Source of the DNA: a virus
Lineage: Duplodnaviria; Caudoviricetes
Virus record (IMG/VR): IMGVR_UViG_3300031992_000016
Coordinates: 96,001 to 160,000 of that record
DNA length: 64,000 nt
Direction: 5' to 3' (one strand)
How positions within the stretch are numbered: position 1 is the stretch's first letter; each line of letters starts with the position of its first letter. A model generated the notes under the pieces. It was not told the DNA's origin. It saw only the letters and a list, made by a program, of their open reading frames with translations, and made no database searches. The translations under genes and the position numbers were made by a program. This document shows, one piece after another, positions 1-52,641 of the stretch.

Positions 1-3000
1 GTGTCACCAGTAATAATATTAACATCCGCCGTCATGTTGTTAGTACCATCTAATTTTAAATAAACGGTATTATGATTATGACCAGCAAGAGCAAAGTATG
101 AATCAGGATGATAAGCTGATGCACCAATTGTAGTGCCAGCAATTACTTTACCACTTGAATCAATATAAATTGGCTAAGTAGCAGTACCAACAGCCGCACG
201 CGAATCAGTATATAATGCTTTTACCCAAGGCTACCAGCTCATTGTATTAACATTATCTACCTTCACTGTTTTTCCAAAACGATGATGAATTTGATAACTG
301 CTATCATCAATAAAAATTTGATGTCCATAAGTAGAATGCCATGGAATATCAATAATCATACCGTCATTTGAATTCCAGGTATCATTGTCATTCATTGCAA
401 TAGATGATACTTTCGCAGCTTGAATACCAATACCATTGGTATGGAATGCATCAACTGCTTCTTTAGTAGTTAATTGTGCATGATATTTTAAAATACTAGC
501 AGTATCAGCATTGCCAGTAACATTACCATTAAAAATCCATTTATTATCTGCACCTGCATAAATAATCCATTGACTAGCTTTATCATCATATAAACCATGA
601 TTAACATTTCCAGTTCCAACACCCCACCAATAGCTAATCGTTGAACTATACTACACTTTTATTTCTGCCTAACCGCCTGCAGCGTGTGTTGCAAGTACAT
701 GACCATTTACAATGCCTGCATATAAATTCTTCCAAGCAAAACTTGCAGTACCTAAATTAAATTCATTGTTCTTACCTGGCCGTAATGCGGTTTTACCATC
801 AAATAATGCAATAGTATTATCATAACCAGTAGCAAAACCAATAGCTAAAGAGCCAGTTTCTGGATAACAGATATAACTTGGACCACTATTATCTGCGGTT
901 CTTGTAAATTCAATATGTTTAATCGCGGTTTTGTCACTGAATATTAATCGTTTTACTTCTGCACTATTTAGAATTTTTGTATCTGTCTATACTGTATATA
1001 AATGGTCAGTATATTGATATACTGGATGAGTAGCATAAAGCATAATACAATATGTATTATAAGCACGACCCAACAAAATATAGCAATTACCATCATTAGA
1101 AGAAGGTAATGCCTATACAATTGGACTTGCTGATGCAATTTTACATTTTCTTCCTGTTGTTGGTGTAACTTTCAAATAAACATTCTTATGTGCCGTTAAA
1201 GTTGTACCAGTATTAAACGTATAACGTAAATCTACAGGATAAGAATAATATAATGCGCCAGCACTAATTGCCGCATCTGCATTAACTGTTGTGGTTGTAC
1301 CATAATAATAGATTAAACCATCGAGTAAGAATTCTTGGCTGGTAAGCATTGTCTTACTAGTGCCAGTTGAATTGCTTGTACTAGTAAGCGCGCATAAATG
1401 GTCTTCATCAACCTAAAATAATAACTAATATCTATAAATAACATTTGCAGCAATATGATTGCCATTTGCAATATATAAGTTAGAAATGGTTGTACTATTA
1501 CTGTCATAGTAATTTAATACTCTAAACGCACCGCCAGTTACAGTTGTCGCATTAACAGAATCAGCACCATCTATAGGAGTCATACTCGCTGCTGAGCCAG
1601 CAGCTTCAAACGTTACCCATAAATAATTATTAACAGGATAATGTGTAGTTAATCTACCAGTTCCATTTAAAACAACTGGATAGTAATTAGTACCATTATT
1701 CATGGAAATATAAACGCCCCAAGTGTGACCGGCGACAGGAATTTTAATTAAGAAAGTATCACCATCAGCAACATTTCTACCAATATTATAAGTCCATTTA
1801 ACTGGAAAATAACGCGGTGAAACACCAGAACCTTTATCTTGTTGTGCAGTACCAGTACCAGTAATTAAATTATTAAATACTTTACTATGTACTGTATCAC
1901 TAAATGTGCCATTAGTGCTATATACACCATTAAATTCATGTGATGCATCACCCAAGGAATGGGTTTTAGTTGCATATGAATAAATAGAACCCTAAGTAAT
2001 ATACAATGATTTAGATGCTGTATCCATCGCTGAACCAGTACCAGGACGAAGAAGAATAGCATTAAGCGCATTAATTGCAACATTGCCATTACTTGCTGCG
2101 GCCATATATGCTTGTTCTGTCTTAATTGTACCATTAGAATTAAGAGTGTACCAAGAAATCCTATTATTTGCAGCATTACTAATAGCATCATTAGCAGCAG
2201 TAAATTGAACATTGCCTCTAAATAATCCGCCTAAATCATCTATAATACGTATCCAACGAGTACCAACAACAGCGCCTGCATTTAAACGCTTATAATATAA
2301 ATGATTTGTGCTACCAAAAGGTACTGCTAAATCAGTATAATACCCATTGCTATTGCTATGATGCATTCTTAAAATATGCCACCAGGCTGTAGTTGGTGTA
2401 TCATTTACTTGCGCGGCATGTCCCGCCGTACCATTAATATCAAACCAACGCAAACCAATTAAATTATAATCAGTACCATCATTACGTACTAAACATTTAG
2501 CGCCTGTCGCAGTTCCATCTAAATCACCATGGAACTTATAAGCATATACAGTTTTCCATTGATGCGAAGTATCGCCTAAATCTTGAGCATTATCCGCGCC
2601 TGGACGCACAAGTCCAGTCTTATAAATAACCAACTGTTGATTTGCACTATCTCCTGTGCCAAAGCCAACAGCCAATACAGATGCGGCATTATCAGGATAA
2701 GTAACATAATTCCAACTACTACGGCTAAATTTAATATGTGATTCCGCAGCAGTACTTGCAATGGTTACTGTTTTTGTATTAGTTTCACCATTAATAGTTA
2801 CTTTACCTTTAGCAAAATTAGCAACTTGCGTACCAGTAGTTGCGCGAATAGTATCCCAAGATCCAGATAATGCGGCTTCATAGACTTGAACATCTACCTA
2901 ATTAGCAAACAATCTTATTCTATCAGGACCACTAGTATTATTTACATCATTACCTTTAAATAATAATAATTCACTTTTTTCATTAGCTGTATCTTTTGGT

Positions 3001-6000
3001 CCATAAATAGATTCACCAATATAAGTATGATTAAAACCAGCAGGACCATCACCATATACACCATAAAATGCAATATAGTTATTGCTACCAGAGTCGGCAC
3101 TAGCATAACCGTTTTGCCCGCTCCCAGTACCTGCGGTATCACTACTACCAATTAATAATGGTCCTTGTAACCAAGATTTACCACCAGCGACTTTTAACGC
3201 ATAATTTACATCTGGAGCAATATTAATACCTAAATGAGGTCTAATACTCCAACCAGTTGCCGCATGTCCTTGAATACGACTTGCTGCACTATTAGAACCA
3301 TTATAGCTAATATAAAAATTAGAATCAGTAATATCTGCTGCCGCAGCTGTTGCATTTGCTGGCGTTGAATATGCTCCAACTAGCCAAACACCATTACCAG
3401 TACCATTAAGAGTGCCTTGCGTACCACCAAGAGTTACAACAGACCAACCGTTTGAAGATCTATTAATTCTAATTCCTTCTGAGTATGAATTAGAAGTATT
3501 ATAAGAACCATTAATAACAATATGGCCATTAACAGTAATAAGATTGGCACCATTAGATACTGCTGTTCCACTATCACCAAATTTAATACCTGAACTATTG
3601 ATTTGTGCATATTGACCATTAGGCCCAACTTGGAACGTGCCGTCTGTGCGGAAAGTGCCGCTATCTTGATAAACATTCTTTGAACCGACGGTACGTATCC
3701 AAGTCTCATCAGTCATCTTCCAGCCGCCACCATTTGCAAATATTAAAGTATTATTTGTTAATGCAGTATTAGTATTATAAACTTTAAAACCATTAACTGC
3801 GCTAATTTGATGATCGAAATAGTATGATTTATCTTGACCATTTGTAAAATGTATCCAAGAGCCATTTTGCGCGCCAATTTCTACAGTAATACTATGATTA
3901 CTTATTTTTAATGTACCACCACTAATAGTGTCAGACCAAGTATTATCACCGCGCCAAAATTTAGCTGTCGTGCCGCCTGATGTAGAAATAGTTGCGGCAC
4001 TACCGGTAATGCTAATAGGCCACGTACCACTTGCGCCAGTACCAGTTAAAGTAGGTGTGTATAAATTATAATTTTTATCATCTAAAATAGTTGCCCAAGA
4101 TTTCCAAGGATTTGTACCATCAACTACATTCCAACCTGAACGATAACGAATACCATATGCTTTACCTTGAGCAGCGCTAGCATTATGACTAATATAAAAC
4201 TAAACAGCCCCACCATTACCAGCACGTATTACATATAACGCGCCATAGGCATATGGGGCATTTTGATTAGTCCCTGGATTATTAGTACCAGTAAAACCAT
4301 TACTAGAAGCAACATAATACGCACCTGTCGTAGTAATATCCCAAGAGCTATCAACACCAATATTGGTAGGTGCTTTGATAATATCATCTAAAGTACCAGT
4401 ACCGCCTAAGCTGATAGTTTTGTTGCCAATAGTAATGGATGAATTTTCTAACTTACTATTAGCAATAGAACCAGCTAACATAGCATTAGTTACTTTTCCT
4501 GCCCCAATAGTAGTGGCAACACTCCATCCCTTTGTGCTACTGCTTGACTCACCAGTTACGTCACCAGTTAATTTAACTGTTGTCCCAGAGGTAAAAGCCG
4601 CTGCGCTACCAGCCTTAGCAGTATAATCTTTATAGCTAACAGTTACTCGATGCTCTGTTGGTATAATAGAAGCATCATCTGCCGTATTATCAATGACTGA
4701 CCAGTCTTGTGAATAATCTCTTGTTAAATTGCTTGGCCAATATTCAAACATATCAATATTAAAATGAATATAATATGCTTCTGGTAATACCGCAGTACCA
4801 ATTAAACCCAGACCAATAGCAACATATTCTTGTCCATTTTCAGTATATGAAGATAAAGTAATTACTGGTCTATGTTCAGTGTTAGATGTTGCACTATAAT
4901 TACAAAATTCACCGTTATAAATATAAAAAACCAAACCTAATTCAGTTGGTAGTCCAGGATTATAATTATCCATATGGAAAATCAATTTTGGCATTACGTT
5001 TCCACTAGTATATGGAATTCTTGTTTTAATTAAAATTTCTTTTGGAGTACCAGATGTACCATAATCAATTACATTATGGAAATATCTACCAGTCTATGTT
5101 TTACCTGGCATAATTCCATCGGTACGGAAATGATAATTTGTACCATCATAATATACAATATAATTGCCGCCAGGCAATGTATAGTTTGAAGAAGAAGATG
5201 GCTTGCCGTTAATCCAAACCGGCTTATCTCCTGTTCCGCCAATATTTAATGTAAATGCGCCTTGATAAGTATTATCATAATAATGAGTATAAGGGAACTA
5301 TTTACCTGCTGTTAATTGAAATTTCCAACCGCCAATCGCGATTTTAGCTTGTTTAGCTGCGCCGCTAGTTGAAGTATTCTCATATGGGAACATATAAGAA
5401 TATGTATTATTATAATCAGCATTAGATAAAATCCAATAAGTACCATTATATACAAAAAGTGCGATTGCATCAGCACGCAATTCATTAGTTGATGTTAAAT
5501 TAGCAATATTCGCATTATATAATTTTTTAATATTTTTGGCGCCTTTACCATTAACATTTAAAGTTAAATTAGCAACTGCAGCAGTATTAGTATTACTAAA
5601 TGAAACAACTAATATGTCACCAGTCTATAGCTAATTATAATCTGCACACGTAACTACCTTTGCGGCAGTACCTGCAGCGGTCGCGCACGTACCATAAAAG
5701 ATACGTCCATTACCGGAAGCTAAATTTAAATCACTTAAACTATAACTATTGCCTAATTGTAATGTTTTATTATTTAAAATAAGATAACGACGTTCATCTT
5801 CTGGGGCAGGCGTCCAATATGTAGCTACAGGTCCGCGTTCCAATTTAATATTATTTAATTGTAAAAAATCACCTGCGGCATACTGATTAGTTGTTGTATT
5901 AGTACAATATAATCTAAAATACAACATTGTAATATTCGTTGGCAATACAAATGTAAATTCAACTCTTGTCCCAGTAACTGTTATTCCTTTTCTGGCAGAT

Positions 6001-6605
6001 GTAATTTCTGCAACACGTTTGCTTTGCAAAGCAGTTGTATCAAAAGTGCCAGCTGTCGTTTTATCTACATATAAATCTAAATTAATATAATAAGTAGTGC
6101 TATTAGTTGCACCTGATAATAATTTATAATCTAAATCAAAAGCAAGTGTGTATTCTGTATTAACAGCCAATGCGTCAAGATTATTAATTTTAATTTGATT
6201 AGCATTAGCAGTATTACTACTACTGCCTAAATATAAAGCTGCCTAACAAGCTGCGGTTTCTTTCAAAATTAAACCATGCGCATCGCTCGCTGTTAAAGTA
6301 CAATTACTTGCTGGCGTAAAATGATATACACCATTTAAATTTGGTAAATTATTATTATCTTTAAATAAAGTATTTTGTATTAAGTTTCTACCAGCAACAT
6401 CTGTGCCGACTAAATAATCTGCCGCGCGTGCATTCAGTGGGATACGATTGACACCCACTTGTGCCTAGTTCGCATCAGCAATATCAATATAAAACTTGCC
6501 ATCATCTTGCGTAAAATAGGCATACCCTTCCGTAGCCTTATAAGTAGAGTTACCTGTTTTACCTAGTGCTGATGATGAGCCTTTTAAAATTTTAAAGAGT
6601 GCCAA
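1..6605 (-). CDS. Long modular tail fibre / receptor-binding protein, >2200 aa, 3' end outside the window (TAG read as Gln)
   Basis: TTG start at 6605 behind SD AGGAGG. Track fragments ending at 6243, 5631, 5298, 4200, 2898, 1992, 1425 and 1113 all end in TAG and share one frame, which stays open to base 1. Motifs: N-terminal LFKILKG..YFTQDDGKFYID, GRNL...KLERGPVATYWTPAPED carbohydrate-binding-type domain, GDVTG fibre repeats, GGGWKMTDETWIR, and Gly/Thr/Asn-rich fibre modules. Confidence 0.85.
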
Positions 6606-9435: not shown

Positions 9436-9460
9436 AGCTCCACTACTCCTTTCTCATAAT

Positions 9461-9490
9461 TCGAGGAGTGCATTAAGATGCACTCCTCGA
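9461..9490. promoter_or_regulatory. Perfect 13-bp inverted repeat without a U-tract
   Basis: TCGAGGAGTGCAT-TAAG-ATGCACTCCTCGA in the intergenic region, just upstream of the SD of the gene starting at 9435. Confidence 0.6.
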
Positions 9491-9524
9491 TATCTATATA
9501 CTTATCAAAAAATTATTAAATATA

Positions 9525-9740
9525 TTATACTACTTCGTCCCGCATACTAATTTCATACCAATTAGTTGCCTCATCTTCTGGCACGGTCACTGTAACCATT
9601 TTGCGCGTACCATCTGTTAATAACTTCCCAGCATCTGCGCGCAATCTAATCAAACGTACATAATATACATCTTCTAAGTGGATAGGAGTTTCTAACACCC
9701 CATTAGTTCCAAGATAGCGATAAATAACTTGACGTGTCAT
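9525..9740 (-). CDS. Small protein (71 aa) following the large LRR/CotH protein; possible fibre chaperone
   Basis: ATG behind AAAGGAG, TAA stop, no TAG. Function inferred from position only. Confidence 0.7.
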   Translation of the reverse strand: MTRQVIYRYLGTNGVLETPIHLEDVYYVRLIRLRADAGKLLTDGTRKMVTVTVPEDEATNWYEISMRDEVV

Positions 9741-9758: not shown

Positions 9759-12700
9759 TTAAATATCTCCATTAGGAGTATAAATAATAAAGTCTGGCGC
9801 ATCGACGCGAGTACCATAGGTAGGATTGCTGCTTGGAGAAGTGTCTCTTAAAGAACCCCACAACTAGCTACCATAAGAACCAGTCTGTTCATCAATTCCA
9901 CCGATAATATCATTTCTACTATATTCTGATAAATCTAAGTATAACATAATTGTTTTAGTTCTAACATCATTAGCAAACCAAGCAACCTGGCCATTATTAT
10001 CTACAGGTGGATTAACAAAATTCTCACGACCTGCTTCACCAGTAAAGTCACGTCTAAATGGTGCTTGACTGCCATCTCCACCTTGACCATAACTTACTAA
10101 TGCTGATGTATTAACTGGATTATCTACTGTACCAAATTCAATAGTTTCGTAGCCAATATTTTCAAATGCTCTTAATCCAATCTATGAAATATTAACATTG
10201 GCAGTTAATACAAGACGTGTATTAGCAATATATCTTGCTCCGCCTTCTTTATTAGCAGCATCGTCTCTATTACGTAACAAACCAACTGAGTTCATTTGGA
10301 TAAATGCTCTTGTGCCAATAACCGATGCATTAATTGGATCATGCAATACTAGGCGTGTAGCATAAGCAACTGCGCCAGGTCCAATTACATTTAATGACTG
10401 TGGTATATCAAGATGACGTAAGTTAGGCATATAAGCAAACGCACATGTACCAAATTCTGTAATCCGACAAGGATTTTGTTCATCATTCATACCTTCAAAG
10501 AAGATGTGAGTAATTTGCGCATTATGTGTCTGGCCATTCTCTACTGTTGCTGTTGGTACATTATCTTGGATAATACCATTGGCTGCCATCTTTGTAACAG
10601 TATAATTAACTGTTTCACCACCGCCAACATCAACAGTAATTGTTCTTGGGATACAAATCTTACCGTAAGCTAATGGGCATCCCTTTTTAATACTAATAGA
10701 AACTTCAGTACCTTGAGCATTATTAGTAGCGATATTAAAGTTTTCTGTTGTACCAGGGATAGGATAATCATATACGCTTACTGTTTTGAATTGTGCGAAG
10801 AACGTAATTGGCTTATCTGTTGTTGGAGTACGAGTTGAATTATAAGTATAATATACATCATTAGCTTCTGGTACTTCTTTTGTGGTCCATCCTAAGAAAT
10901 GATAAGTCTGTGCCAATGGCAACATTGAATCATCCTTATATGGATTAACTCTTGAGAATTGAATTGGCTCGCCTGCATAAGCAGTACCAGTTAATACATT
11001 CCCATCAAAATCAGTAGCAGGAGTAGTCGCATTAAACATATACGTAATTAAATATGGTGTTTTAGAATAAACTGCAACTAATGTATAATTAACTAAATTG
11101 CCGCCTGTTGGTTGCAAAGATAAAGAAGACAAATTAACTTCACCCATGCTATTTGCAGGAAGGATAGTACCAGCATCAATTAAATTTAATGCCTCGGTTT
11201 TATCTAATTGAGATGCCTTGGCACGCCATTGCTCAACGGTATATTGATTTTCGCCATCACCAGCAATAGCCCAACCCATAAAGTCATAATGCAAACGACG
11301 TGGTTTTTCAAAATTCTCTGAATAAGATACCTGTGCATTACCAAATCCATTTGCATACTTTTGAGTGCCAAACTCATGCATGCTCTTACCTTCATCATCT
11401 AAGAATTCAATAAAGCGCGCACGATTAGCTTCTGTTACGTAATTTGCGGTAATATCAAGTTTATTGAAATTACCAGTAGCCTGATAGTAAGCAAAAATTT
11501 CTGCTTCATTTACTGGCGTACTTGAAGTATTATTGATATGTACTTTACCAGTAATAGTAGGAATTAATTTTTCATTCTTATTTGTAACACTATCTAGCAA
11601 TGGACGGAAATGATAATTTTCAATGCTGCCTTGACTAATACGGTCTTGGATGAAATTATTAAACAATGATAAATTAGTGATTGGGCTTTCACCTTTTTCA
11701 GTATCATATAGATATAATAAACCATCACGTTTATCTTGTTCAAATTGTGTAATATTAACACTAGGATTAATATTACCAGCACCAAAATAACGCACATATT
11801 TAATTTGATCTCTATAGTAATAATTTGCTTGCTGTGATTCATCATAGCTTTCATCAACAGCTACTTGATGATAAGGTGTCCAATCAGCATTTAAAACTTG
11901 GATACGCAAATCTGCAGAAGTACCAGTGTGTGCCGTCGTTGGATTAGCAATACGTTCTCTCTTTAATTTTACCAAATAAGCTAGCATCTTATAAGTATCA
12001 TAGCCTAATAAAGTATCATCCATTTGATAATATTGAATAATAGAATTGTATTCATCTGGAATTGCAGAAGTAGTTAATGCATAATCTAACTTATCAGTTA
12101 AATCTTCTATATATAAACCTTCTTGATTATTTCCAGCACTTGTCTATGATTTGCTCGTTAAAATTCTAGTTAATTTCAATGGTGAAATCAAAGACAAATT
12201 ACCAATAGTCTTTGGCAAATAAACTGTAGTTAATACATTACCTGCAGGCATTGGCGCCTGTGCAATTTCAGTACCTAATAGTTTTAAAACTTCTAACTTC
12301 GGACAATCTTTAATATCTGGATCACCAGTTAATTGTTTTAAATTACTTAAATCAACTAAGCGTAATAATCCACGTGGTCCAATAGCAAAGCTGGTTAAAT
12401 TATTGTTGTAATAACCTTCCCTATCATCACCAACTTTTAGCTCACGAATTCTGTCTGCAGAACCAAGCACAAATTCATTCAAATATTTAGGAGCTAAATC
12501 GCCTAAACTTGAAACATATTGTGGGCCTCTTACATAAGCTAATTGCTGCGTTAAAGCAACACCCAAAGATGCACGCTTACCAATTGAACTTGGTGGCTCA
12601 ATAGTAACGTTTTCAGCAGTGCCGCCTAATTTAAATTTAACACTTGGTGCAGCAGTTTGGTCATATAAGACTGTAACATACTGTGATAAATATGGTGTAA

Positions 12701-15700
12701 TTGTAAATGTTGCGTTAGAATCAAATTGTTCATGGCCAACCATATTGTCATCAGATGTTCTATCCTTATCATTTAAATTATAACGCATTTTAATTTGAGC
12801 ACTTGTATTAATTGGGTCATATGCCGCAGCACTCCAGTGAGAATCAAGATAATTAAATCTATTACGAATTAAAGACTAACGTTGTAATGAACGGTCACCT
12901 TGTAAGCAATAGAAATAATCAGATGTGATAACTGTTGAATGGTCAGGAGCAACATATCCTAAACCATTAATAGCTGGAGCAATATATTTATAAAATGCAT
13001 CGTAGTTCTTCATAGATTCAGACCATCTGTTACTACTTGCAGTTTCATAATATTGCGTAATCGCTTCTTGTGTTAAAGATTCACGAATTGCTTTATACAA
13101 GTTAGCAATTTCACGAGAGAAACACAACTGAACGTTATTCCATAAAACCGAACCATTACCAGAGAAAATAGAGTCTGTAGTTCCACTGGCAGAATAAACC
13201 TCAATATTAGCGACACCATTGTCGTCAAATACGGTTCTTGTTGTTAAAGGAGGAGTTGCATCAACATCATAATCCCAATAAACCTGACCAGAGTTATTAA
13301 TACCTAACTGCGTATCTAAGTCATAGAAAATAGGATACCAGATATAATCTCCGCCCTCACGTTCAGGACCCCAAGAAGCAAGCATCATATTCTTTTGACG
13401 AGAGTCATATAGTAAGAAGAATTCAGTGAATACAAAATAGAAAAGTACATAAGCCAAATTTAAATGTTCGCTAAATTCATTGCGGAACTTAGCTAAGCGG
13501 TATCTGTCATTATCAATAGTAAATTTCTCATATAATACGCTAGCATCAAAACCATCAATATCAATACTTAAATTTAATGTTATATATTTGACCCAATAAG
13601 TTGAATCACTATTATTAACATTAACAAAGGTAATACCTAAGTCATTTGCTAAATCAACGACATGAGAACCATAATGCCAACGCCAATTTGGTTCTTCATT
13701 AGTACCATCGTTACTATAAATAAAGCCTTGCTCACCAACATATTCTTCATTAGTATGTTCTTTATCATCGGTTTCTAAAGATTTTAAGAAACTCCAAATC
13801 TTACTTGAATCAGTAATTTCAAAAGTAATGTCTGCAGAATCTTTTAGGTTACTATTTTTAATTTCACCAGTTTTTGGATCAAGAGTTAAATGGTCTGTTA
13901 AATACGCACCCTTTTTAGTTACATGATTTGCAACTGTAATGGTAGCAGGAGTGTATTCATTTGTATCACTATCATAATGATAATATTCTACACCTGGTTC
14001 ATACTCAGTAGATAATGTACGATAATATTTTGTACCAATATCACGTACTGGCTGAGAAGCTTTTCTGCCAATATAAGAAGTAACGTCAGTCTAACGAATC
14101 CAATCCCAAAGTCTATGCAAGTTTTCAGTACGATTTACCCATTCAAAGGCATTACCATCGCCATCTTTACCAGAAACAACACCTGTACCTACCATTTCTG
14201 GATAACGCTGTTCAAAATGTTCAGAAATTTCATAATATTGAACTTCTTGTCCATTAATAGTAGTTGTACTTGTTGCTAACCAGTTATCTGCCACAGAGTC
14301 ATCTTGGAACTTACCATGACCAGCTTGATTTTGACGGAATTCCCAACATTCACAAACATCAGCATATGTAGGATTGGTAATTGTTTTCAATGTACCAGTC
14401 TTCATATTTTCTTTATAGTTAGGATCATCTTCATCATCATTGACTTTAGTTACTTGCAATGTGTGCAAATATTTATGAGTTGCTGGAATTACAGAAGGAT
14501 TATCATCAGATTCTTCTTGTGTAGGATCAAAATCTGGATTAGCCTTTTCCTCATAAGTAAAACCAAAAGTGTTTTCACATTCTTTATGAGTATTAATATT
14601 GTAACGTCCAACAAACTTAATGTCGCCTGCGCCATTTTCCCAGAATAATAAGATTGGGAAACCAAAAACAGTAGTACGATAATTTTCAGTAGCACCTTCT
14701 GGATCTAATCTCTTTAATGGGTGCCGCAAATCATAACCAGCACCTGAATAATTACCTGCCAAATAAGCAACTAAATTTGCGCCGGGAGTATTATGAGAAG
14801 AAGCACTATCCATATAATCAGCTTTTAATACTAATGACTTATTTTGCATACTGAATGCGAAATCTTGTCCATTAATTTTAGTACCAATAACTATTGTACC
14901 TTTATTCTTATTTGGGTCAGTAGCATTAGGTTTAAACTTGATATATTTATTTTTTACTTTTAAATCCGCTTCGGTAATTGCAATATTGGCTTCATCACCA
15001 TCCCACCAACAAATTTGGAATGGATTTGGTTCTGCTACTTTATCTTTATCATTCCAGTCTGCTGAACCTTGCTTTAATTTAAGCTAGAAATTACGACGTG
15101 GATAACCTTGTGAAGAAGTACCTTGTACGTCAATAGTAACATTTGTAGCTTTCCAACAACGTTCTGGATCAAATGGATCATAATAACGAATATTACATCC
15201 GTACTTATCGCCCTTTTTATATGGCAATTCATCCATTAATTTTTTAACGCCGTCAATTTTATCAGTTTTAATTACCATAATAGGAATTAATTTTTTTGCT
15301 TTAGCGTTAGCGTATTCGATAAAGTTTTGCTTAGGATCTAAAATACCCTGGTTTTTATCATAACGCTCTTTTTTAATTCTCAATGTTGGGCCATCTGCGG
15401 TCCAGTTTTGAGTAATACTACTGAAAGGCAAGTCATTCTCATAAATACGAATATTATAAAGGTCAATATCGCAATAATCAGAATAAATATATAAACCTTC
15501 ACGACGTGTATTTGGATCCAAATTCTGCGCAAATGATTGCGTAAATGAAGAGTCTGCTGGGAAGGTTAAAATATTTGTAATAACGCCATTAATATAAGCA
15601 AAAATTACAGGCTTACCTAATGTTTTTGTTGAACCATCTTCCATCTTAAATGCTGGATTTTGAGAAACAACAAAAGAAACTTTAACACGAACATCATCTG

Positions 15701-17804
15701 TATAGCGTGCATTAACCAACAAAGATTTAGATAATGCCAAGAATGCTTCTTGAGTACCTAAGATTAAACCTTTATCAGAAGCATAATACTGTAAGAACGT
15801 GCCGCGGCCGTTAGTAGTAACTGTACGAGCAAGAACTTCACCACCAGTAAGCGGATTTTCTTGAGGTACTAAATTACCATCTTGATCAACAGCAAGACCT
15901 TTCTCATTAGCATGGTATTTACTCTCATCATAAGCAAATGCTTCTTGCAAATCGGAATCATAATATTTATATTTTCTTTCGCCATTCTCATCTACTTCAG
16001 TTAATTGCTCATAAGTTAAATAAACTGTTCTTGTTTCAATTAATCGTGAATAGTCTGTTGCATTATGAATAGCAAATTCAAATTCATAAGTTTGGTTACC
16101 GCCAGCACTAAAAACTGAGCAAGGAATAAATACAGATGCGCCATTAGATACTCTTAAACAAGTATTACCATCATCATCTTTCAACCAACCATTATTGTAC
16201 CAGTTAAAATTATTTAATTCAATTGGTGCATTTTCATATGATTGAGTTGTAAGATTATATGTCTTTAATATATTGTTGCTTGCTTTCTTTGCTGTATTAT
16301 TCCATTGAGCACGCTTAATTTTTGATTCATTATTAGAACGTCCAGTAGCAGATAATTCTAATACAGCATCTTTTTCAGGTTCAAGAGTGTATTGTGAATT
16401 ACGTGTTATTGTTACTTCAGTCGTCCAAGAAGTTTGACCAGCAACAATAGTAAATACGTTTTGTCCTAATTGATAATTACCAACTTCCCAATAGTTATAA
16501 TCATTAGGATTATATGCTACATCTAAAGAACTAACTTCTTCACCATTAACATAGAAGAAGACTTCTGTAGAAGCATTATTAGAAGGATCAACTACCATAT
16601 AAGGAATGGTAATTAAAGTATAGTTTTCAAAAGTCGCTTCATGTTGGAAAGGAGACCAAATAATTGGTGTTAAATTACCAGTAACGAACCAACCGATTTC
16701 ATAATGTAAGCCACTTGTAATAGGAATGGTTACACCATTTAATGTCATTGTCGCTTCGATGTCTAATGAATGATTACCGTGTGCGGCGTCAATAAACAAA
16801 TCTGCCAAAGGAACCGCACCACTGGCTGAAGTAACGTCTCTTGTAATAGTGCGTTCTGTCGTAAGTCCGCGATCAATGGTGGCTGATATTTTCATATTTG
16901 ACGTATCAATTAAAGCATTAAAATCAGTTTGACTCATAGAAGTATCATAGGTTACAGTATATGCATAATCAAAGTCATCTAAGGATTCTGCATTTTTTAA
17001 CTCACGAGGCTTCCAGAAAATTTCATTTGCAACCAAATGAATATCAATAACTTGAACATTTTCCCAACTCTTAGGAGATTTACGTCCATTAACAGTTGCA
17101 TATAGTTTTAAAATATTAGTACCTACACGCAAATAGTTATAAGGAATTTCAACCGTAGTTTCACCAGCATTAACATCGCAACGACCAATCATCATGGTTT
17201 CACGGAATGGTGCTACTGCTTCTTCGCTAGCATAGAACTCTACATATAAAGTACCATTATGACCTTCACGTGTTAAGCTATCTAAGATACGAGCTTTCAA
17301 AGTAATGCTTGTACCAGAAACAACCATTGCTAATGGACTTTCAGTAACTAATACGGTAACACCAGAAGATTGCTCGCCTTCTCCACCACCGCCACCAGTA
17401 CCAGCAACTAAAATTTTTGTAACATAGCAATTTTCATCATCAATATCTATAATACGATATAATGAACCATCTTTGTTTAAAATAATATCATTCGCTCCAT
17501 AGGTCTCCTATTTAACTCCCATTTCTTCATATGCTTCAGCAATACTTGAGCGAGGGAAGATATTTGATGCTGCACCGTGACCACTTGGAGCAGGCAATAA
17601 ACTTTCTACTTGTGAGCCATAGACAAATTTTATCCCAGATGCGCCAACAGAGTGTCTTAATCCGTCAGCATCATCAAAATAAAGACGCTCTGTGTCTGTA
17701 GTAAAATATACAGCGCCAGGAGTAGTTGGTAATCCATCAATCGCATGTTCAGTACCGCGATAAACAGAAAACGCATCTTGGGAAACAGAAGCTTTACTTG
17801 CCAT
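9759..17804 (-). CDS. Giant tail-region protein, 2681 aa: N-terminal docking motif, beta-sandwich/LamG-like region, CotH-like kinase domain, LRRs, InlB-B-like repeats, BspA-type LRR
   Basis: ATG behind GAAAGGAG. Fragments ending at TAG 17508, 15084, 14091, 12876, 12144 and 10182 share one frame, TAA stop at 9759. Motifs DVQGTSSQGYPRRNF, LKADYMDS, GRYNIN, YDSRQKN, WYPIFYDLDT. LRRs LRLVDLSNLKQL, LEVLKLLGTEI, AFAYMPNLRHLDIPQSLNVIG. Confidence 0.8.
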
Positions 17805-17826
17805 ACTTGTACTCCTTTCCTCTAAA

Positions 17827-17864
17827 TATCATAGCCATAAGAATGAATTCTTATGGCTATGATA
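17827..17864. promoter_or_regulatory. Perfect 18-bp inverted repeat without a clear U-tract
   Basis: TATCATAGCCATAAGAAT-GA-ATTCTTATGGCTATGATA between the stop at 17879 and the SD of the gene starting at 17804. Confidence 0.6.
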
Positions 17865-17878
17865 ATCTATATAATTAA

Positions 17879-25449: not shown

Positions 25450-28256
25450 AATGAGGTTCCTCCTATATTTTTACGTGTCGGTTTTTTCCCGCTATCTGCA
25501 TAAGTTACACCAGTTGTATAAGCATGATTATTTAATATCAAAGTTTCATCTGCTAAAGAATTGTCTTTATACGCATCAATATTATAAATATCAATATCTG
25601 ATAAAGCAGATGTTATATTGCCCCAAATTGCTTTCAAGGCTTTAGAATAATCATATAAAGCACGATTATATGTAATAATTAATTCATTGTAGTGCGTAAC
25701 CCACTGATACTGTAAAGCATGCAAACTTTCATCGGTATTCTCCCAACTTTGTGGAGAATGAATAAAAGTTTGTAATTCTCGTTTTGCGCGAATATAATTA
25801 TCATAGTAATGTTGAGTATCATCTCTATGAGTTTGGTAAATTGCTTCTTGTGTTTGACAAGAAATTTCTACCAAAACACCATTACCAGCAGTAATTTTCG
25901 TTGGAATTGATTTAAACTATGTAAATAACTAAGTCCCTCTTAAAGAATCTAAATTTAAATTAATTACACTGCCATCTTCAAACTAAAGCTAAGCGGTATA
26001 ATCAATATGGGAACCTGCGCCATATCCATAATAATAATACGTATTTTCATTTTCTTTATCTGGACCTTTTGTCACAAAAATGTGTGGATCCATTGTGGTT
26101 CCTACACTATCTAATACAAAATAAGGTATTAATATATCGCCTCGATAATATACTCCATCATGATACTATAATGTAGTATTATCTTTAATATATTCAGTTG
26201 CCTAAACTGACTAACCTGTAAAACGTGAAAATTTTAATTTATATAAACGTGAAATTGGCAACATGCAATCCAATAAATTGACTTGTGGCCCTAAGCCCCA
26301 ACGTTGAATACAAAGTTCTTCTACTGGGTTACAATAATTTACGGTATTAAAATCAGATTTTGTAATTGCGCCTACCGTTACTACTCCATTATATAAAGTA
26401 TCGTAAATGGAAGCTGGCTCCTAAACACGTCCAATAGTAATCTCTTTAATTAAAGACCCTGTTGGTAATGTTAAAGCATAATACCCAGTTGCGCCAATAG
26501 TAATATGTCGATAATCAGTAGTTATACCATCTACCCCAACGATACGTAAATTAAACATAGTGCCAGGAACACAATTTTCAATTTTTAAAGAGCCAACACC
26601 CTCATATACATTTAAACTTGGTGTTTCTACATTTTGATTTTTAAATACGTCAGTTAATGAAATAGTATAATATGTAAATGTTTGATGTACCGCGGCACTA
26701 GTAGAAGTACCATCATAAGGTGCTTTATATAACCCAAATTTAATTAAATCATTTAAATCATCAGCATTACCGCATTCACTAGCTTGTGACTAAAACGTAT
26801 GTAGCATACGTGAAACACTATCATTAGGTGTTAATGAACTATTCATTAGATATACAATATAATTGCCTTCACCTGGGCTTTTTAATAATTTTGGTTTGCC
26901 ATTACTTAACCACTATAAAGCTGTCATATTAAAGCGTCGTTCAAGTGTAAGATTTTCATCTGTAATATCTGTTTCATCTTCATGATTACCATAGCCTAGT
27001 TCTTCTCTTGAATAAAAATAGCCATCTCTATCCATGAGATAACTTAATAAACCAGATAGCTAAAATTCTTTATAATCTACAACGCCATTTCTAAAATATT
27101 TTGGATATTTAGAACCTATTGTATTTTTTTTCGATTCATTCAAAGTGCGTTTAAATGCAGTAACTTTAGGATTAAAACGTATATCTAATTGACGTTCTCC
27201 ATCCCATAAAAATAAATCTTCAAAATATGCAGTTACATCATTTGAAATAGTACGACGTGAGTAAAGACCACGACTATTATACTGTCGCACTGAATAACGA
27301 TATGTTACACCATGTTCTACCATAAAATCAGTATAAAAATACTAACCAGTAACCATATCTTCTGTTAAAGAAAAATTAAATAATTTGGTCCAACTACCAA
27401 AATTATCTTTTGAACTAGAACGTGAAAATTCATATCGTCCAGCATTTGTGTCAAAAATAGCATTATATTTAATTTTGATAAGACCATTGTCATAATCTAA
27501 AACTGCTTTTAAAGGTGCGCGAGTATCACTTGGCAATCCTGTCCCGGCAATAATAGTATACCAAGGAGAAGATATTTCCTAGAATGAATTAGTCTATACT
27601 ACATAACGTAAAAGATAGTATTCATCAACAATTAAAATTTTACCAAGAGACCAATGATCTTCACTACGCCCAGCTTCTGTATCGCCATATTCAGCATGAG
27701 GCTACCATCCACTAGATTCTATTAATTCATATGATGATGAATATAAATCAAATTTATATTGATAAACAACTTCCGTGGTATCACTATTTAAATATTCACC
27801 AGTAAATTCTTGGAAGTCATAATTATTACCAAAAGAATCTAAACCAACTATATTGACAGTAATATCATTTGTACATTTAACAATAGCAACAGTCGAATAA
27901 TATCCACAAGCGTTATCTTTATCTATAAAAGCAATTTGTATTTTATATGATTGGCCTATTGATAATCTCTGTCGCCAAGGTAATAAAGAAAATACTGCAA
28001 CTAATGAATCTTCCGCGGTACTTGTACTAGTAATTGGATATATGTTTGGCGCTTCAGTATTAACATTTAAATCTACTTCACATAAAATGGTATCAGTATT
28101 TGTTGTACGTAATCTCATACGCAAACCTGTTACTTGTGATGCCGCAACCGCACGATTCATTGAAAAAGGGACCCTTAATAAGGGTCCCTTTGAATAAATC
28201 ATTGAAGGTAAAGTACCAGCTATAACAGGCGGATAAAGCTTTGTTGTAGCCGGCAT
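25446..28256 (-). CDS. Tail-tip protein with Fn3/Ig-like and distal-tail (Dit)-like regions, 936 aa
   Basis: ATG at 28256 behind GAGGAG. Fragments ending at 27702, 27342, 27060 and 25446 share a frame, TGA stop. Motifs DFMVEHGVTYRYSV, TIGSKYP, WLSNGKPKLLKSPGEGNYIV. Confidence 0.65.
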
Positions 28257-38982: not shown

Positions 38983-41900
38983 TTATCTATAATTATTAAT
39001 ATATTGTGACGCACGATTATTAAGTTCATCAAACGCCGCAATAATTTCGTTTCTATCAGTTGCATTCGGGAACTCAGCGGAAATATGAACATTCTATTCT
39101 AGCCCGCCTAGACCAGAGAAAATGCTAGCACCATTGGCTGAAACTCCACTACTTGACATAGCGGCAGCCAAACCACCAATAAATCCTAACAAATTTTGAA
39201 CAGCAGATGTATCAATAGAATGTAACAGATCAATCGTATTTAGCAAATTAGGCGTGTCTGCCGCATTAAGCATAAGCTCTGGTTTATTTGGTGTGCCATC
39301 AACCCAAGCAGGTCCAGTATAATCAACCAAACCGCCAGAAGCATACCCACTTAATTTTGAATTATATCTCATTGCAGCAGCCTTTGCCGCTTCAATTTTT
39401 GATTGCCAATCACTTGAAACCTTTTTACTTTTAGTAGATGATACTGTTGTACCGTTAGAACTAGCAACCGTACCATCAGTATAACCAACCATATTATTTT
39501 GTACTGGTACTAAACGATATTGAATAAAACCAGTAGCATTAGGTGTTGCAATGTCTCCTTCGGTACCACCAATCTGCCATAATAATTCTAAATTTTTTGT
39601 ATTTGCTGCTTCAATAGTAGCAAAAATATCTGAAATAACTTGTTTTTGTCTATACCAAGCATCAGTCACTGCATCAACTTTAGCCGCTTCATCGCCCAAT
39701 TCCTCATTTAAAAGACTGACTTGCGATGCAGCTAATGATGTAGTAGAACCAATGATTTCATCAAAATTGGTCATGTCTGCTAACCCAGTACGATAAAGAG
39801 ATGTATCTAAAGCATCACTGAATTCTTTTAATTTAGGTAATAACCAATCAATCTATTCTGCTAAACTCATTGCCATACTATCTTGTAATTCAATAGCAGC
39901 TTGAATAGTAGGATTGATACCTTCTGTTGGGTCTTTAAAAGCACTATAATAAGCATCGCTATATGCATCCATACAAGCTTCATTATTAGTGGTTAAATTA
40001 GCATATGCTTCTTTCATTTGATCGACAAAATATTTATCGTCTTGTTGAGCCATTTCATGTAATTCACGTAATTTTGCTGCTTTTTCTTCTTCATTCAATA
40101 AATCATCAAGAGCAATAGCTTTCGCCTATTCCACATACCATTTGCGCTTTTCTAACATTTGTTCTTCTAATTCCCGCACTCTGTCTAATGATAATTCATT
40201 AATTTCAATTAATACATCATTATATTCCTGCGTTGCTTCATCAACTTTTTCTTGGTCTGCAGTATATTGATACATATAATTACCATTTTCATCTCTTGTT
40301 AATCGTACAGTATCTTTTGCGTTCTATGCATCACGTAACGCTGTCTGTTTTTCTAATAGTTCATACTATTTTTGCATCATATCAACATCATATTGAGTTA
40401 ATTGACCACTTTTAGCTTTTTGATTAATAACATTCTATAGCTCTTCATATTGATTCTTTAAAGCCTTATCCATAGTATCTGCCATCGCTTGTTCAATTTG
40501 TCTATTTAATTTATTAATATTATATAACTAATGAGCTGTATTTAAATATCTATCTTGTACTTCAATGTCACGATCATATTTACCTTGTAAGTAATCTAAT
40601 GTCGTTTCTCCCATCGCCAATGCTCTATCTAATTCAGTGCCCATTTCTTCAACATCGGCTTCCCAACGTTGTCTAGCTAAATCCGCCATACTTGTTAAAT
40701 TTTCATAATAAGTATTTTGTGTATCTTTTAAGCGAGCTAATAAACTATAATAATCTGCCTATTGCTGTGCGTCTAAATTTTCTAGACCATCAGCTTCAAT
40801 AATTTTTTGATCAAATAATTCTTTTTGAGCTAAAACAGTTTCATATACATCTTTATAAATATTTGCCAATGCCTAAGTTTGATTATATTGTTCTGTCAAA
40901 TTTGCTCTTGTTGTTGTAAATGTTTTATGAACTCCTATTAAATCACTAATATCTTTAATAGTCTATAAAGCAGTAATATTCTTATCTAATAAATCAGTAT
41001 TTCTTGATAATTCGTCATCGTATTTAGACCACATATCTTCAAATAATTCCTATATTTCTTGACCTTTATCAAAGATGTCTGACATATCATCATTTAAAGC
41101 TTCCATAATATCCTATGAATGTTCTGCCATAGTTGCACCATCAATTTCGCCTGCTTTAAATGCTTGCTATAATTCATTTAATTTAGTCATTTCTTCATTA
41201 AGTTTAATAAAACTCGCACCATCTAAATTTACTCCATCACTACCAAATAGTGCCTCTGCTATTAAACTTGCTCTTGTGCTAAGATTAGTTAATATATCTT
41301 CGGTACGATCAAGTTGCCCTTCTAATGCATTTAATTCTAAATCTGCTAATTCAATTTTCCATTCGTGCGCAGTTTCTACGGTTTCAGCAGTTTTTTCAGA
41401 AATTTCATGTTGCTATTCAAGAATTTTTTCTTGATATTCTTCTATTTGAGCTAATGAATCTTCATAATCTTCAATGACTTTCAACATACGTTGATAGGCA
41501 TCATCAGGTCCTTCCATCCCGCTTTCTGCTTCATCATCTTTATGTTCATTATACCAATCTATTAATTTTTCCTAAAGAGCTTCCCAATTTTTAATAGTTC
41601 CATCTTCATCAAAATCAAGAGTAATACCAAGCTATGCTGCTAAGCCTTCAACATTTGATCTATCTTTGCTAGCATATGCCGCAGCTTCATTTAATCGTTC
41701 TTGATAATTGTCCATTTGTTTATTTAATTTTTCAATTTCTTCACGCATCAATTTAACTTTAGTTACACCAAATGCCATTTCTTCTTTTTTAGCGACCTAG
41801 CCTAATTTGGAATCATATCGTTTAATTGTTTCATCAACTTCATGGTAGCGTTTAAGATCGGCTTTGGATTTACCTTTCTTCTTCTTTTTGCCTCCACCGC

Positions 41901-50900: not shown

Positions 50901-52641
50901 GTGCAAATTTTTGAGCACCATACTAAGAAATTGCTTGCATCCTTCCGCCATAATTATTTGAATTATTTTGCATATAAGCATTAAATTTTCTATAAGTAGG
51001 AATACCACCAATTGGATGCCCTTCTGAGCCTTTTGCTGCTTTCATGTTGCCCCATGCAGTCCGCAACGTACCACCTTTGCCAAAGAAATTTCCAAATGCC
51101 ATGCTAATACCTGTTAATTTATCTAACATCTATGGTTTAAATGCAGTCATCATCATCTAAGAAATTTTTGCTAATATACCAGGGATACCTCCAAGACCAT
51201 TAACTAAACCTCTAACTGCAGATAACGCTGTTGCCAATGCATTATTAAATCCAACAAGGAATTTATCATTAATTAAATCACCGAAAATAGCTTCTTTACT
51301 TGCTTGTACTCTTTGTTTAGATGCTTTAACAGAATCTTCATAAATTTTCTGCATTTTTTCTAAGCTGCCAGCTGAATTTTGAGCATTTTGCAAATCTTTT
51401 TGATACGTATCCCAGTTTTCAAATAATGCCATTAATTGCGTATATTGACGTTTACCAGCAACAACCTGCGCGATAGCAGTTTTTTGCGCACTGCCCATGG
51501 TCTACCATTTATTACCAAGATCAGTAATAACATCGCCCATATCACGCATATTACCAGTAGCATCTAAAACCTATACACCAATAGAATTTAATGAGCTTGA
51601 AACTTTACCTAAATTAACACCGTCTTCTAATGTTTCACCTAATTTTAAGTCACCCATACGTGCTAAAATAGTTTTAAAAGATGTACCAATTGATTCAGCA
51701 CTTTCACGAGTAACAGAAGATACAGTTGCAACAATAGAAGACATTTGTTCCATACCGACACCAACAGTACTAGCAGTCGCGGCAACTTTCTATAAAGCTG
51801 TTGCAATTTCTTCCATGCTAGTAGCAGTAGTAGAACCTAATTTTGCCATTACATCTACATAACCTTCAAGCTAATCACCGCCTGCTTTATAAGAATTCCA
51901 AACGGCGGTTAGCATTTCTGACATTTCCGCAGCATTAGCTTTGAATGCAGTATTTGCAGCCTTTAAAGTAATTTGTGCTTTCTTTTGTACATCTCTATCA
52001 TTATCACCCTATTGATAATAAATTAATGCTGCATCAGCATATGCTTTTGTTGATGTACTTAAACTTTTTGCCATTACATTTGCTTCTTTTGCAAAATTGC
52101 TCATATCAGAAATAGATTTGCCAGTAACAACACGAATATTATTTAATGAAGTATTTAAATTTTCAATATAGCTAACTGCTCCACTCATAGCAGACTATAA
52201 GCCATGAACCATTTGACTAGCTGCTTGCCATTTCACAGTATTCATTAAAGTTGTGCCAAACTATGCAATAAGACCAGTCGCTTTTTGCGCGGGAATAGTT
52301 GCCTAAGTTAGAACAGAAGACAACTATGAAATTGCCTATTGTCCAGTTGTACCGGCGCGCTAGAAACTGGCAATTAACGTTTGAACATTTGTATTAGCAC
52401 TCGCCAAGCTATTACTTAATGCACTAAAATTAATTTGCCCAGTATTAACATTAACTGCCTATTGTAATGCCTACTATAATTTTGCTGCTTGCTACGCGGC
52501 ATCTGCCATATTTGTATCAATTTTTAAATTTAATCTACTGTTTTGCTGCAATCTTTGTAATGAAGAACTTAATTGTTCAACCTACCGCTATGCAGCACTG
52601 GCATCAGCCTAAATATTAATTTTATACTATACACCAGCCAC
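38983..52641 (-). CDS. Tail tape measure protein (TP901-type core), 4552 aa
   Basis: GTG start behind GAAAGGAG. About 19 track fragments from 51571 to 39094 all end in TAG in the same frame, TAA stop at 38983. TMP motifs LNNIRVVT, ATVSSVTRESAESIGTSFKTILARM, VAGKRQYTQLMAL, and C-terminal YASGGLVDYTGPAWVDG. Confidence 0.9.
46440..47040 (-). repeat. Degenerate tandem repeat of about 72 bp (24 aa) within the tape measure gene
   Basis: ACCAAATTCACCTTGGAAAGTAATAGTTTTAT occurs at 46501 and 46573. Protein unit xKTITFQGEFGTYT..., about 9 increasingly degenerate copies. Confidence 0.8.

What the first reader, a model, noticed from the sequence alone, without database searches (positions are those of the whole stretch)
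12800..15150. Apparently intact CotH-like protein kinase domain inside a giant tail-region protein
Seen: QGTSS..YPRRNF, LKADY, GRYN, D-x4-N (YDSRQKN, about 13389-13409) and YDLD (about 13314-13325) occur in the expected order, flanked by beta-sandwich/LamG-like and LRR domains. Known: CotH is an atypical kinase that phosphorylates spore-coat proteins in Bacillota and uses D-x4-N and WD-x-D motifs. Inferred: a virion-borne kinase or ATP-binding adhesin that could modify phage or host surface proteins or engage spores. I know of no established function for this in phage tails. The domain is only complete if the TAGs at 15084, 14091 and 12876 are read through.
Basis: partly seen in the sequence, partly recalled or inferred. 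Interest (0 to 1): 0.78.

Follow-up and report, generated by a model that had tools for sequence, protein, structure and literature searches.

The report
CotH kinase domain in phage fibre
A 2,681-residue tail-fibre-type protein of a stop-codon-recoded 169-kb phage really does contain a complete CotH-type kinase domain with its catalytic residues intact, but it belongs to a very large family of giant phage proteins that has been noticed before and never tested.

Summary
Read with TAG as a sense codon, window 9759-17804 (-) is one 2,681-aa gene. Residues 851-1660 fold as a CotH kinase: VIA-align Z 22.7 to B. cereus CotH 5JD9, with 340 of 358 residues aligned. Pfam CotH misses the window sequence itself, which carries about 400 residues of insertions. 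It does hit 35 of 73 relatives, and a profile of compact relatives matches canonical bacterial CotH (hhalign probability 92-98%).

The D-x-R-x-K-N catalytic loop (D617-N622) and Y-D-x-D (Y644-D647) are invariant in about 148 cluster representatives. The window copy deviates at only 2 of 73 highly conserved columns. A suppressor tRNA(CUA) in the genome supports TAG read-through.

The gene lies downstream of a 4,552-aa tape measure gene, among fibre genes. A ConA-like lectin fold lies upstream of the domain, and leucine-rich repeats lie downstream.

This is not new. CotH plus LamG plus LRR giants of about 2,000 aa in gut phages, including the Hankyphage DGR target, are described in at least four papers as unstudied, and this scan has flagged them in 39 or more other genomes. 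This copy lacks a DGR. Kinase activity, substrate and site of action remain untested. The spore link is unsupported.

The parts
9759..17804 (-). Whole gene: 2,681-aa giant fibre-type protein (P0001). Seven in-frame TAG codons are read as sense; the stop is TAA at 9759-9761.
   Evidence: Full-length relatives of 2,200-2,700 aa align along the whole length.
17805..17875 (-). Upstream signals: TATATAGA, then a hairpin, then the Shine-Dalgarno sequence AAAGGAG 6-7 nt before the ATG at 17804.
   Evidence: Read directly from the sequence.
15255..16517 (-). ConA/LamG-like lectin jelly-roll module, residues 430-850.
   Evidence: AF2 model with pLDDT 81.6. Foldseek top hits are lectin-like receptor-binding domains, E 1e-7, 7-10% identity, fold only. 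Laminin_G_3 hits 12 of 63 relatives. There is no direct Pfam hit.
12825..15254 (-). CotH-type kinase domain, residues 851-1660 of P0001 (P0002 residues 1-810).
   Evidence: VIA-align Z 22.7, rmsd 4.2 A, 340 of 358 residues of 5JD9 aligned. Foldseek top hits are 5JDA and 5JD9. Pfam CotH hits 35 of 73 relatives. hhalign of compact relatives against canonical CotH gives probability 92-98%. A weak direct PF08757 hit of 13.6 bits lies at window 13266-13493.
13389..13409 (-). Catalytic loop Y616-D617-S-R619-Q-K621-N622, of the D-x-[R]-x-x-N type.
   Evidence: D617, R619, K621 and N622 are invariant in 148 of 148 representatives and in alignment A2. D617 aligns with the conserved Asp of canonical CotH.
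13314..13325 (-). Y644-D645-L-D647, the counterpart of the W-D metal-binding Asp motif of CotH.
   Evidence: Y644, D645 and D647 are invariant in 149 of 149 representatives. The motif aligns with GPvWD of canonical CotH.
15084..15086 (-). In-frame TAG at P0002 residue 57, inside a beta-strand of the N-lobe.
   Evidence: Relatives have K or R here in 135 of 136 cases.
14091..14093 (-). In-frame TAG at P0002 residue 388, at the end of a helix.
   Evidence: Relatives have Ser here in 105 of 127 cases.
12876..12878 (-). In-frame TAG at P0002 residue 793, inside a C-lobe helix.
   Evidence: Relatives have Q, E or K here, and five relatives also have TAG.
13530..14057 (-). Largest lineage-specific insertion in the kinase domain, P0002 residues about 400-575. 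Smaller insertions lie at 14850-15071 and 14355-14537.
   Evidence: Alignment coverage is low and pLDDT is low to moderate here. Compact relatives span the same domain in 421-470 aa.
11250..12749 (-). Region downstream of the kinase with a leucine-rich-repeat-like pattern.
   Evidence: The consensus of alignment A4 shows LxxLxL periodicity. LRR_4, LRR_5 and Flg_new are found in relatives only. There is no direct Pfam hit.
10299..10466 (-). BspA-type LRR_5 match, residues 2447-2502, below the Pfam threshold.
   Evidence: E 0.005 and 0.00024; 17-21 bits against a cut-off of 27.7. Relatives score up to 1e-39.

Best explanation
The gene encodes a giant distal-tail or fibre protein of a long-tailed, TAG-recoded phage. 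Its parts run in this order: an N-terminal fibre-attachment region, Ig-like and ConA-like lectin modules, a central CotH-type (CotH/Fam20-like) kinase domain, and then leucine-rich-repeat and BspA-like binding modules. Shown here: the CotH fold is complete, and the residues matching PKA D166, N171 and D184 (here D617, N622 and D645) are present and invariant across the family. Inferred: the domain is a working phosphotransferase. The most likely setting is the infected cell, where ATP is available. There it would phosphorylate itself or neighbouring fibre or virion proteins during tail assembly, much as CotH phosphorylates structural spore-coat proteins while the coat is built. The protein would then ride on the virion, where its lectin and LRR modules bind the host surface. 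Unlike the Hankyphage-type relatives, this copy is not diversified by a retroelement. The confidence of 0.55 is for the whole statement: about 0.9 for an intact CotH-fold domain in a fibre-module protein, about 0.6 for real phosphotransfer activity, and about 0.3 for action during assembly in the producer cell.
For: One ORF with a strong SD. A suppressor tRNA(CUA) is encoded in the genome. Codons opposite 198 family TAGs are 8.5-fold enriched for Gln. CotH fold: Z 22.7, 340 of 358 residues aligned, against the next best HipA at 9.3 and PI3K at 7.8. Pfam CotH scores above its cut-off in 6 of 6 compact relatives and at E<=0.01 in 35 of 73. hhalign gives 92-98% probability against canonical CotH over the full domain. 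D617, R619, K621, N622, Y644, D645, D647, K144, D146 and K224 are 100% conserved in 141-149 cluster representatives. The window copy deviates at 2 of 73 conserved columns, against a family median of 1. The kinase C-lobe is the best-conserved part of the whole giant protein. For tail context, a 4,552-aa tape measure gene lies upstream, a tail-protein PHROG hits a neighbour and a portal gene is present. The ORF continues at least 420 aa upstream and at least 500 aa downstream of the domain in 70-71 of 73 relatives. No RT is found in the complete genome. The CotH active-site description is taken from PMC12189002 and PMC7821199.
Against: No biochemical or proteomic data exist for any family member; the literature calls the family 'unstudied' (PMC8008677). 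Pfam CotH and PDB sequence searches give nothing significant for the window sequence itself. The model coordinates could not be inspected, so active-site geometry and the adenine-sandwich residues (Y142 and W245 of CotH) are not mapped. Two of the three in-domain TAGs sit at positions where relatives have K/R or Ser. The amino acid inserted at TAG in this particular genome is only weakly supported as Gln. No Ser-rich, CotB/CotG-like substrate is evident among neighbouring genes. The site and time of action are pure inference.
Confidence: 0.55

Rival explanations
1. The CotH fold here is a non-catalytic ligand-binding or scaffold module, that is a pseudokinase or adhesin. Its nucleotide pocket binds a host-surface ligand or simply holds the fibre together. 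The fungal CotH proteins of Mucorales act this way, as invasins.
For: The domain sits between lectin-like and LRR binding modules on a presumed extracellular fibre, where ATP is scarce. It tolerates 400 or more residues of insertions. Fungal CotH proteins are reported as cell-surface ligands (PMC9973265, title and abstract level only).
Against: Every residue expected for phosphotransfer is absolutely invariant across sequences only 30-40% identical overall: D-x-R-x-K-N and Y-D-x-D. Pseudokinases usually lose one or more of these residues.
Confidence: 0.2
2. The kinase acts outside the cell at adsorption. Displayed on the fibre, it would phosphorylate a host envelope protein or glycan using extracellular ATP, in the way some Fam20-type relatives phosphorylate sugars. 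This would aid binding, penetration or superinfection exclusion.
For: Carbohydrate-binding-type modules flank the domain. The fold is related to secretory-pathway kinases (Golgi casein kinase, Z 7.3). Earlier authors speculated about manipulation of the host (bioRxiv 10.1101/2020.04.01.020958).
Against: There is no evidence for an ATP source at the cell surface. No substrate is known. A 2,681-aa fibre protein is unlikely to enter the cell. Nothing in the sequence separates this reading from action during assembly.
Confidence: 0.12
3. The region is a decayed gene interrupted by stop codons, or the motifs are a chance resemblance.
For: Under table 11 the region breaks into ORFs of 193-747 aa. 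Pfam finds no CotH in the window protein.
Against: All late genes carry in-frame TAG only, for example 103 in the tape measure gene. A tRNA(CUA) is encoded in the genome. Conservation and the confident fold run straight across the TAG positions. The copy is as close to the family consensus as other members are.
Confidence: 0.02

Closest known systems
Giant CotH-containing phage tail or variable proteins. These are DGR target class f1 of Wu et al. 2018 (PMC5758913), PC_00012 of Roux et al. (bioRxiv 10.1101/2020.04.01.020958) and 'domain group 3' of Macadangdang et al. (bioRxiv 10.1101/2024.11.15.621889). They include the 2,245-aa DGR target of Bacteroides Hankyphage p00 (BK010646, 31489-38226).
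   Same: More than 2,000 aa long. Same module order: N-terminal region, ConA/LamG, CotH, LRR. Direct sequence homology: tblastn E 7e-19 to p00, and phmmer E down to 1e-276 to uncultured relatives. Same position after the tail genes.
   Different: The complete genome has no reverse transcriptase, so there is no DGR. No C-type-lectin variable tip was detected; the C-terminus is BspA-LRR-like instead. The kinase domain is inflated to about 810 aa by insertions, against about 420 aa in compact members. The gene is TAG-recoded in a 169-kb phage whose portal resembles those of large siphoviruses of Bacillota.
Bacillus spore-coat kinase CotH (B. subtilis CotH; B. cereus CotH, PDB 5JD9 and 5JDA)
   Same: The same fold over the whole enzyme: Z 22.7, 340 of 358 residues. 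The catalytic-loop Asp and Asn and the metal-binding Asp preceded by an aromatic residue are conserved (PMC12189002).
   Different: About 13% identity. The domain is embedded in a 2,681-aa phage protein rather than standing alone as a roughly 360-aa protein. It carries three large insertions, has Y-D-x-D instead of W-D, and has an invariant D-S-R-x-K-N loop. No sporulation context or CotB/CotG-like substrate is present.
Other atypical kinase-fold enzymes (HipA, PI3K catalytic domain, Fam20C Golgi casein kinase)
   Same: General bilobal protein-kinase-like fold (Z 7-9).
   Different: These matches are much weaker than the match to CotH, and there is no sequence relationship. They serve only to place the domain in the kinase-like superfamily.

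Membership tests
CotH kinase family (Pfam PF08757) | Sequence match to the PF08757 profile above the gathering score (23.8 bits) | tested here: inconclusive
   The window protein itself gives no hit in hmmscan and 13.6 bits, E 0.002, at the catalytic region in the six-frame search. Its homologues pass the cut-off: 6 of 6 compact relatives score 26-43 bits, and 35 of 73 relatives score at E<=0.01. A profile of compact relatives against canonical CotH gives hhalign probability 92-98%.
CotH kinase family (Pfam PF08757) | CotH three-dimensional fold covering both lobes | tested here: met
   The AF2 model (pTM 0.75) aligns to 5JD9 at Z 22.7, rmsd 4.2 A, over 340 of 358 residues. The next unrelated fold scores Z 9.3.
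CotH kinase family (Pfam PF08757) | Active-site residues equivalent to PKA D166, N171 and D184 (B. subtilis CotH D228 and D251) | tested here: met
   D617-x4-N622 and D645 are present and 100% conserved. D617 and D645 align with the conserved Asp residues of canonical CotH. The definition is taken from PMC12189002 and PMC7821199.
CotH kinase family (Pfam PF08757) | [quoted passage not shown] | tested here: inconclusive
   The invariant Y644 immediately precedes D645, where canonical CotH has W-D. W304 is a candidate for the second aromatic residue. No residue-level structural superposition was available.
CotH kinase family (Pfam PF08757) | Ser/Thr phosphotransfer to structural proteins | not testable with these tools
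   This needs a biochemical assay.
Giant CotH-LamG-LRR phage proteins (DGR class f1 / PC_00012 / domain group 3) | Phage protein of more than 2,000 aa that aligns along its length with family members | tested here: met
   The protein is 2,681 aa. It shares 49% identity over 2,580 columns with the relative in L178. There are 1,203 representative hits, mostly of 2,200-2,700 aa.
Giant CotH-LamG-LRR phage proteins (DGR class f1 / PC_00012 / domain group 3) | CotH domain preceded by a ConA/LamG module and followed by LRRs | tested here: met
   The ConA-like fold of the window's own flank is shown. LamG and LRR Pfam hits occur in relatives. The LRR in the window protein itself is below threshold.
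Giant CotH-LamG-LRR phage proteins (DGR class f1 / PC_00012 / domain group 3) | C-terminal C-type-lectin variable region diversified by a DGR reverse transcriptase | tested here: not met
   No RVT_1 match is found anywhere in the complete 168,960-bp genome. No CLec-type domain is found by Pfam in the C-terminal part. This copy is therefore a member of the protein family but not of its DGR-diversified subset.

The most novel reading that the evidence does not exclude
The fibre-borne CotH domain is an active enzyme that works on the virion, outside the producer cell. It would phosphorylate a host surface protein or glycan, or the phage's own fibres, at the moment of adsorption. That would be a previously unknown enzymatic step in phage-host recognition, shared by more than a thousand lineages of gut phages.
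Probability: 0.1. Interest if true: 0.8.

Novelty: new member of a known kind. Interest (0 to 1): 0.3.

Why it matters
CotH-bearing giant fibres are among the most widespread conserved modules of gut and rumen phages: 1,203 clusters at 50% identity, in phages of Clostridia, Bacteroidales, Coriobacteriia and Mollicutes-type hosts, and under three genetic codes. Their catalytic residues are absolutely conserved, yet nobody has shown what they phosphorylate. This window adds a DGR-free, TAG-recoded, insertion-rich example. It shows that the kinase core, not the binding tip, is the constant element. By itself it does not open a new way of testing the function.

Tried and rejected
- Direct Pfam scans of the whole protein and of the domain found no CotH.
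- phmmer of the domain and hmmsearch of the family profile against PDB sequences found nothing. The relationship shows only through relatives, profile-profile comparison and fold.
- hhalign with the insertion-rich alignment was weak (E 0.006-0.009). The alignment of compact members was needed.
- Foldseek alone gave only E 0.075 to CotH because of the insertions.
- The first full-length alignment was too large for the PDB profile search and for folding. One align call failed internally.
- I tried to establish which amino acid TAG encodes in this genome. Five distant genomes share too little sequence. In the three closest contigs only 6 of 85 window TAGs face Gln codons (5 of 31 in the closest). 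This is suggestive but not conclusive.
- A DGR was sought and none found.
- A tail-module phosphatase partner, as seen in crAss-like phages by this scan, was sought. The only metallophosphoesterase lies 45 kb or more away in the early region.
- Ser-rich, CotB/CotG-like substrates among neighbouring genes were sought and none is evident.
- The spore-engagement idea was rejected because the family is common in Bacteroidales phages.

Full report
**Gene and genetic code.** Under table 11 the region breaks into ORFs of 193-747 aa. With TAG read as sense, window 9759-17804 (-) is one 2,681-aa ORF with seven in-frame TAGs. A strong Shine-Dalgarno sequence, AAAGGAG, precedes the ATG.

The window is part of a complete 168,960-bp virus record with terminal repeats. 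All late genes carry in-frame TAG and no other stop codon, for example 103 in one 4,552-aa ORF. The genome encodes 33 tRNAs, including a tRNA with anticodon CUA.

In an alignment of 73 domain sequences, the real codons opposite 198 TAG codons are 8.5-fold enriched for Gln. For this genome alone the evidence is thinner: 5 of 31 TAGs face CAA or CAG in the closest relative. Read-through is therefore well supported, and Gln is the likely but unproven residue.

**The observation.** YDSRQKN lies at 13389-13409 and YDLD at 13314-13325. The TAGs lie at 15084, 14091 and 12876.

**Is it CotH?** Direct searches fail. Pfam gives no hit for the whole protein or the domain, and PDB sequence searches give none. 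A six-frame search with PF08757 gives only 13.6 bits, placed exactly on the catalytic region at window 13266-13493.

The domain has 1,203 cluster representatives at E<=1e-3, most of them proteins of 2,200-2,700 aa. Some relatives span the same domain in about 420 aa. All six compact relatives tested pass the Pfam CotH cut-off at 26-43 bits. In a domain-only alignment built from IMG/VR loci (A2), 35 of 73 members hit CotH at E<=0.01.

A profile of 17 compact members matches a profile of seven canonical bacterial CotH domains (fetched) over the full length. hhalign probability is 92% in local mode and 98% in global mode.

The AlphaFold2 model of the window domain has pLDDT 69 and pTM 0.75, with pLDDT 85-95 around the catalytic loop. 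Its top Foldseek hits are B. cereus CotH 5JDA and 5JD9. With VIA-align it aligns at Z 22.7, rmsd 4.2 A, over 340 of 358 residues. The next folds are HipA at 9.3, PI3K at 7.8 and Fam20-type Golgi casein kinase at 7.3. The fold and the homology are therefore established. The window sequence escapes Pfam because it has about 400 residues of insertions, at P0002 residues 62-135, 240-300 and 400-575.

**Is it intact?** CotH keeps equivalents of PKA D166, N171 and D184 and stacks adenine between two aromatic residues (PMC12189002). The B. subtilis mutants D228Q and D251A are inactive (PMC7821199).

In the phage family, D617-S-R619-x-K621-N622 and Y644-D645-x-D647 are invariant in 148-149 cluster representatives. 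So are K144, D146, K224, N309 and Y606. D617 and D645 align with the conserved Asp residues of canonical CotH.

The window copy differs from the consensus at only 2 of 73 columns that are at least 90% conserved. The family median is 1. Two caveats apply. TAG57 lies where 135 of 136 relatives have K or R, and TAG388 lies where 105 of 127 have Ser. I could not inspect model coordinates, so active-site geometry is untested.

**Context.** Upstream in the direction of transcription lie a portal gene and a 4,552-aa tape measure gene (PHROG E 5e-45). Large distal-tail genes follow, one of which matches a tail-protein PHROG, and then a run of fibre-like genes. The portal resembles those of large siphoviruses of Bacillota and the gut phage Phass-1.

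The 421 aa before the kinase fold as a ConA-like jelly roll (pLDDT 81.6). Their best Foldseek matches are lectin-like receptor-binding domains, at fold level only. Laminin_G_3 hits 12 of 63 relatives. Downstream, relatives show LRR_4, LRR_5 and Listeria-Bacteroides repeats. The window protein has only a sub-threshold BspA LRR_5 hit. In 70-71 of 73 relatives the ORF continues at least 420 aa upstream and at least 500 aa downstream of the domain, so the kinase is always embedded in a giant protein.

**What is known.** Four papers describe CotH in phage proteins of about 2,000 aa and note that they are unstudied:
- Wu et al. 2018 describe roughly 2,000-aa DGR targets with CotH and Laminin_G_3 (PMC5758913).
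- Benler et al. 2021 note phage CotH kinase domains fused to hypervariable C-type lectin domains and call them 'currently unstudied' (PMC8008677).
- Roux et al. describe PC_00012.
- Macadangdang et al. describe variable proteins of more than 2,000 aa with CotH active-site motifs, carbohydrate-binding motifs and LRRs.

The Hankyphage p00 DGR target is a direct homologue. NCBI already labels fragments of the family 'CotH kinase family protein'. This scan has noted the family in at least 39 other genomes.

This copy differs in four ways. It has no reverse transcriptase and hence no DGR. Its domain is insertion-inflated. It is TAG-recoded. It has no adjacent phosphatase partner.

The family occurs in contigs binned with Clostridia, Erysipelotrichaceae, Mollicutes-type, Coriobacteriia and Bacteroidales genomes. 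The proposed link to spores therefore has no basis.

**Mechanism.** Shown: a complete CotH fold, with invariant catalytic residues, inside a fibre-module protein. Inferred: it is an active phosphotransferase. Absolute conservation of the D-x-R-x-K-N and Y-D-x-D motifs across sequences 30-40% identical argues against a pseudokinase.

ATP is available in the producer cell and scarce outside it. The simplest model is therefore phosphorylation of the protein itself or of partner fibre proteins during tail assembly, by analogy with CotH patterning the spore coat. The lectin and LRR modules would then provide host binding on the virion.

Rival readings are a non-catalytic binding module, and extracellular action on host envelope proteins or glycans. 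None of these can be separated by sequence analysis.

**Verdict.** It is a further member of a known, widespread and functionally untested family, so interest is modest.

Noticed in passing
G000:C1:37355-37447 (outside the window; the window is G000 96001-160000): The suppressor tRNA(CUA) is 93 nt long. Its acceptor, D and anticodon arms resemble the phage's own tRNA-Gln(CUG) at 26969-27042. It also carries an extra arm of about 20 nt and an A1-C72 mismatch with G73. A long extra arm is typical of Ser, Leu and Tyr tRNAs, not of Gln tRNAs.
   Followed up: partly
window 15084-15086 and 14091-14093 (-): Two of the three TAG codons inside the kinase domain fall on positions where relatives almost always have K/R (135 of 136) or Ser (105 of 127). 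That is unexpected if TAG is simply Gln. The amino acid inserted at TAG in this genome is not firmly established: 5 of 31 TAGs face Gln codons in the nearest relative.
   Followed up: partly
window 38983-52641 (-): The tape measure gene is 4,552 aa long and carries 103 in-frame TAG codons. If length scales as usual, this implies an exceptionally long tail.
   Followed up: partly
L019:2501-4645 and the other loci: The same giant CotH gene family is found in phages with no recoding, with TAG recoding (up to 13 TAG in the domain) and with TGA recoding (10 in-frame TGA in L019).
   Followed up: no
window 15255-16517 (-): The lectin-like module before the kinase has its best Foldseek matches to the receptor-binding (Hc) domains of clostridial neurotoxins (E 1e-7, 7-10% identity). 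This is a shared ConA-like jelly-roll fold, not evidence of any toxin relationship.
   Followed up: partly
window 9525-9740 (-) and intergenic 9440-9524, 17805-17878: A small gene with its own strong SD starts about 18 nt after the giant gene's stop. TATATAGA followed by a perfect hairpin and then the SD recurs before consecutive late genes (17866-17873, 9493-9500).
   Followed up: no
G000:C1:51434-51916 (+), outside the window: This is the only metallophosphoesterase match in the genome (22.9 bits). It lies in the early region, not next to the CotH gene. The kinase/phosphatase gene pair that this scan saw in crAss-like phages is therefore absent here.
   Followed up: yes
window 3-6605 (-): A second giant late ORF, more than 2,201 aa with 17 TAG, runs off the window end. 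It has no PHROG match and may be another fibre protein.
   Followed up: no
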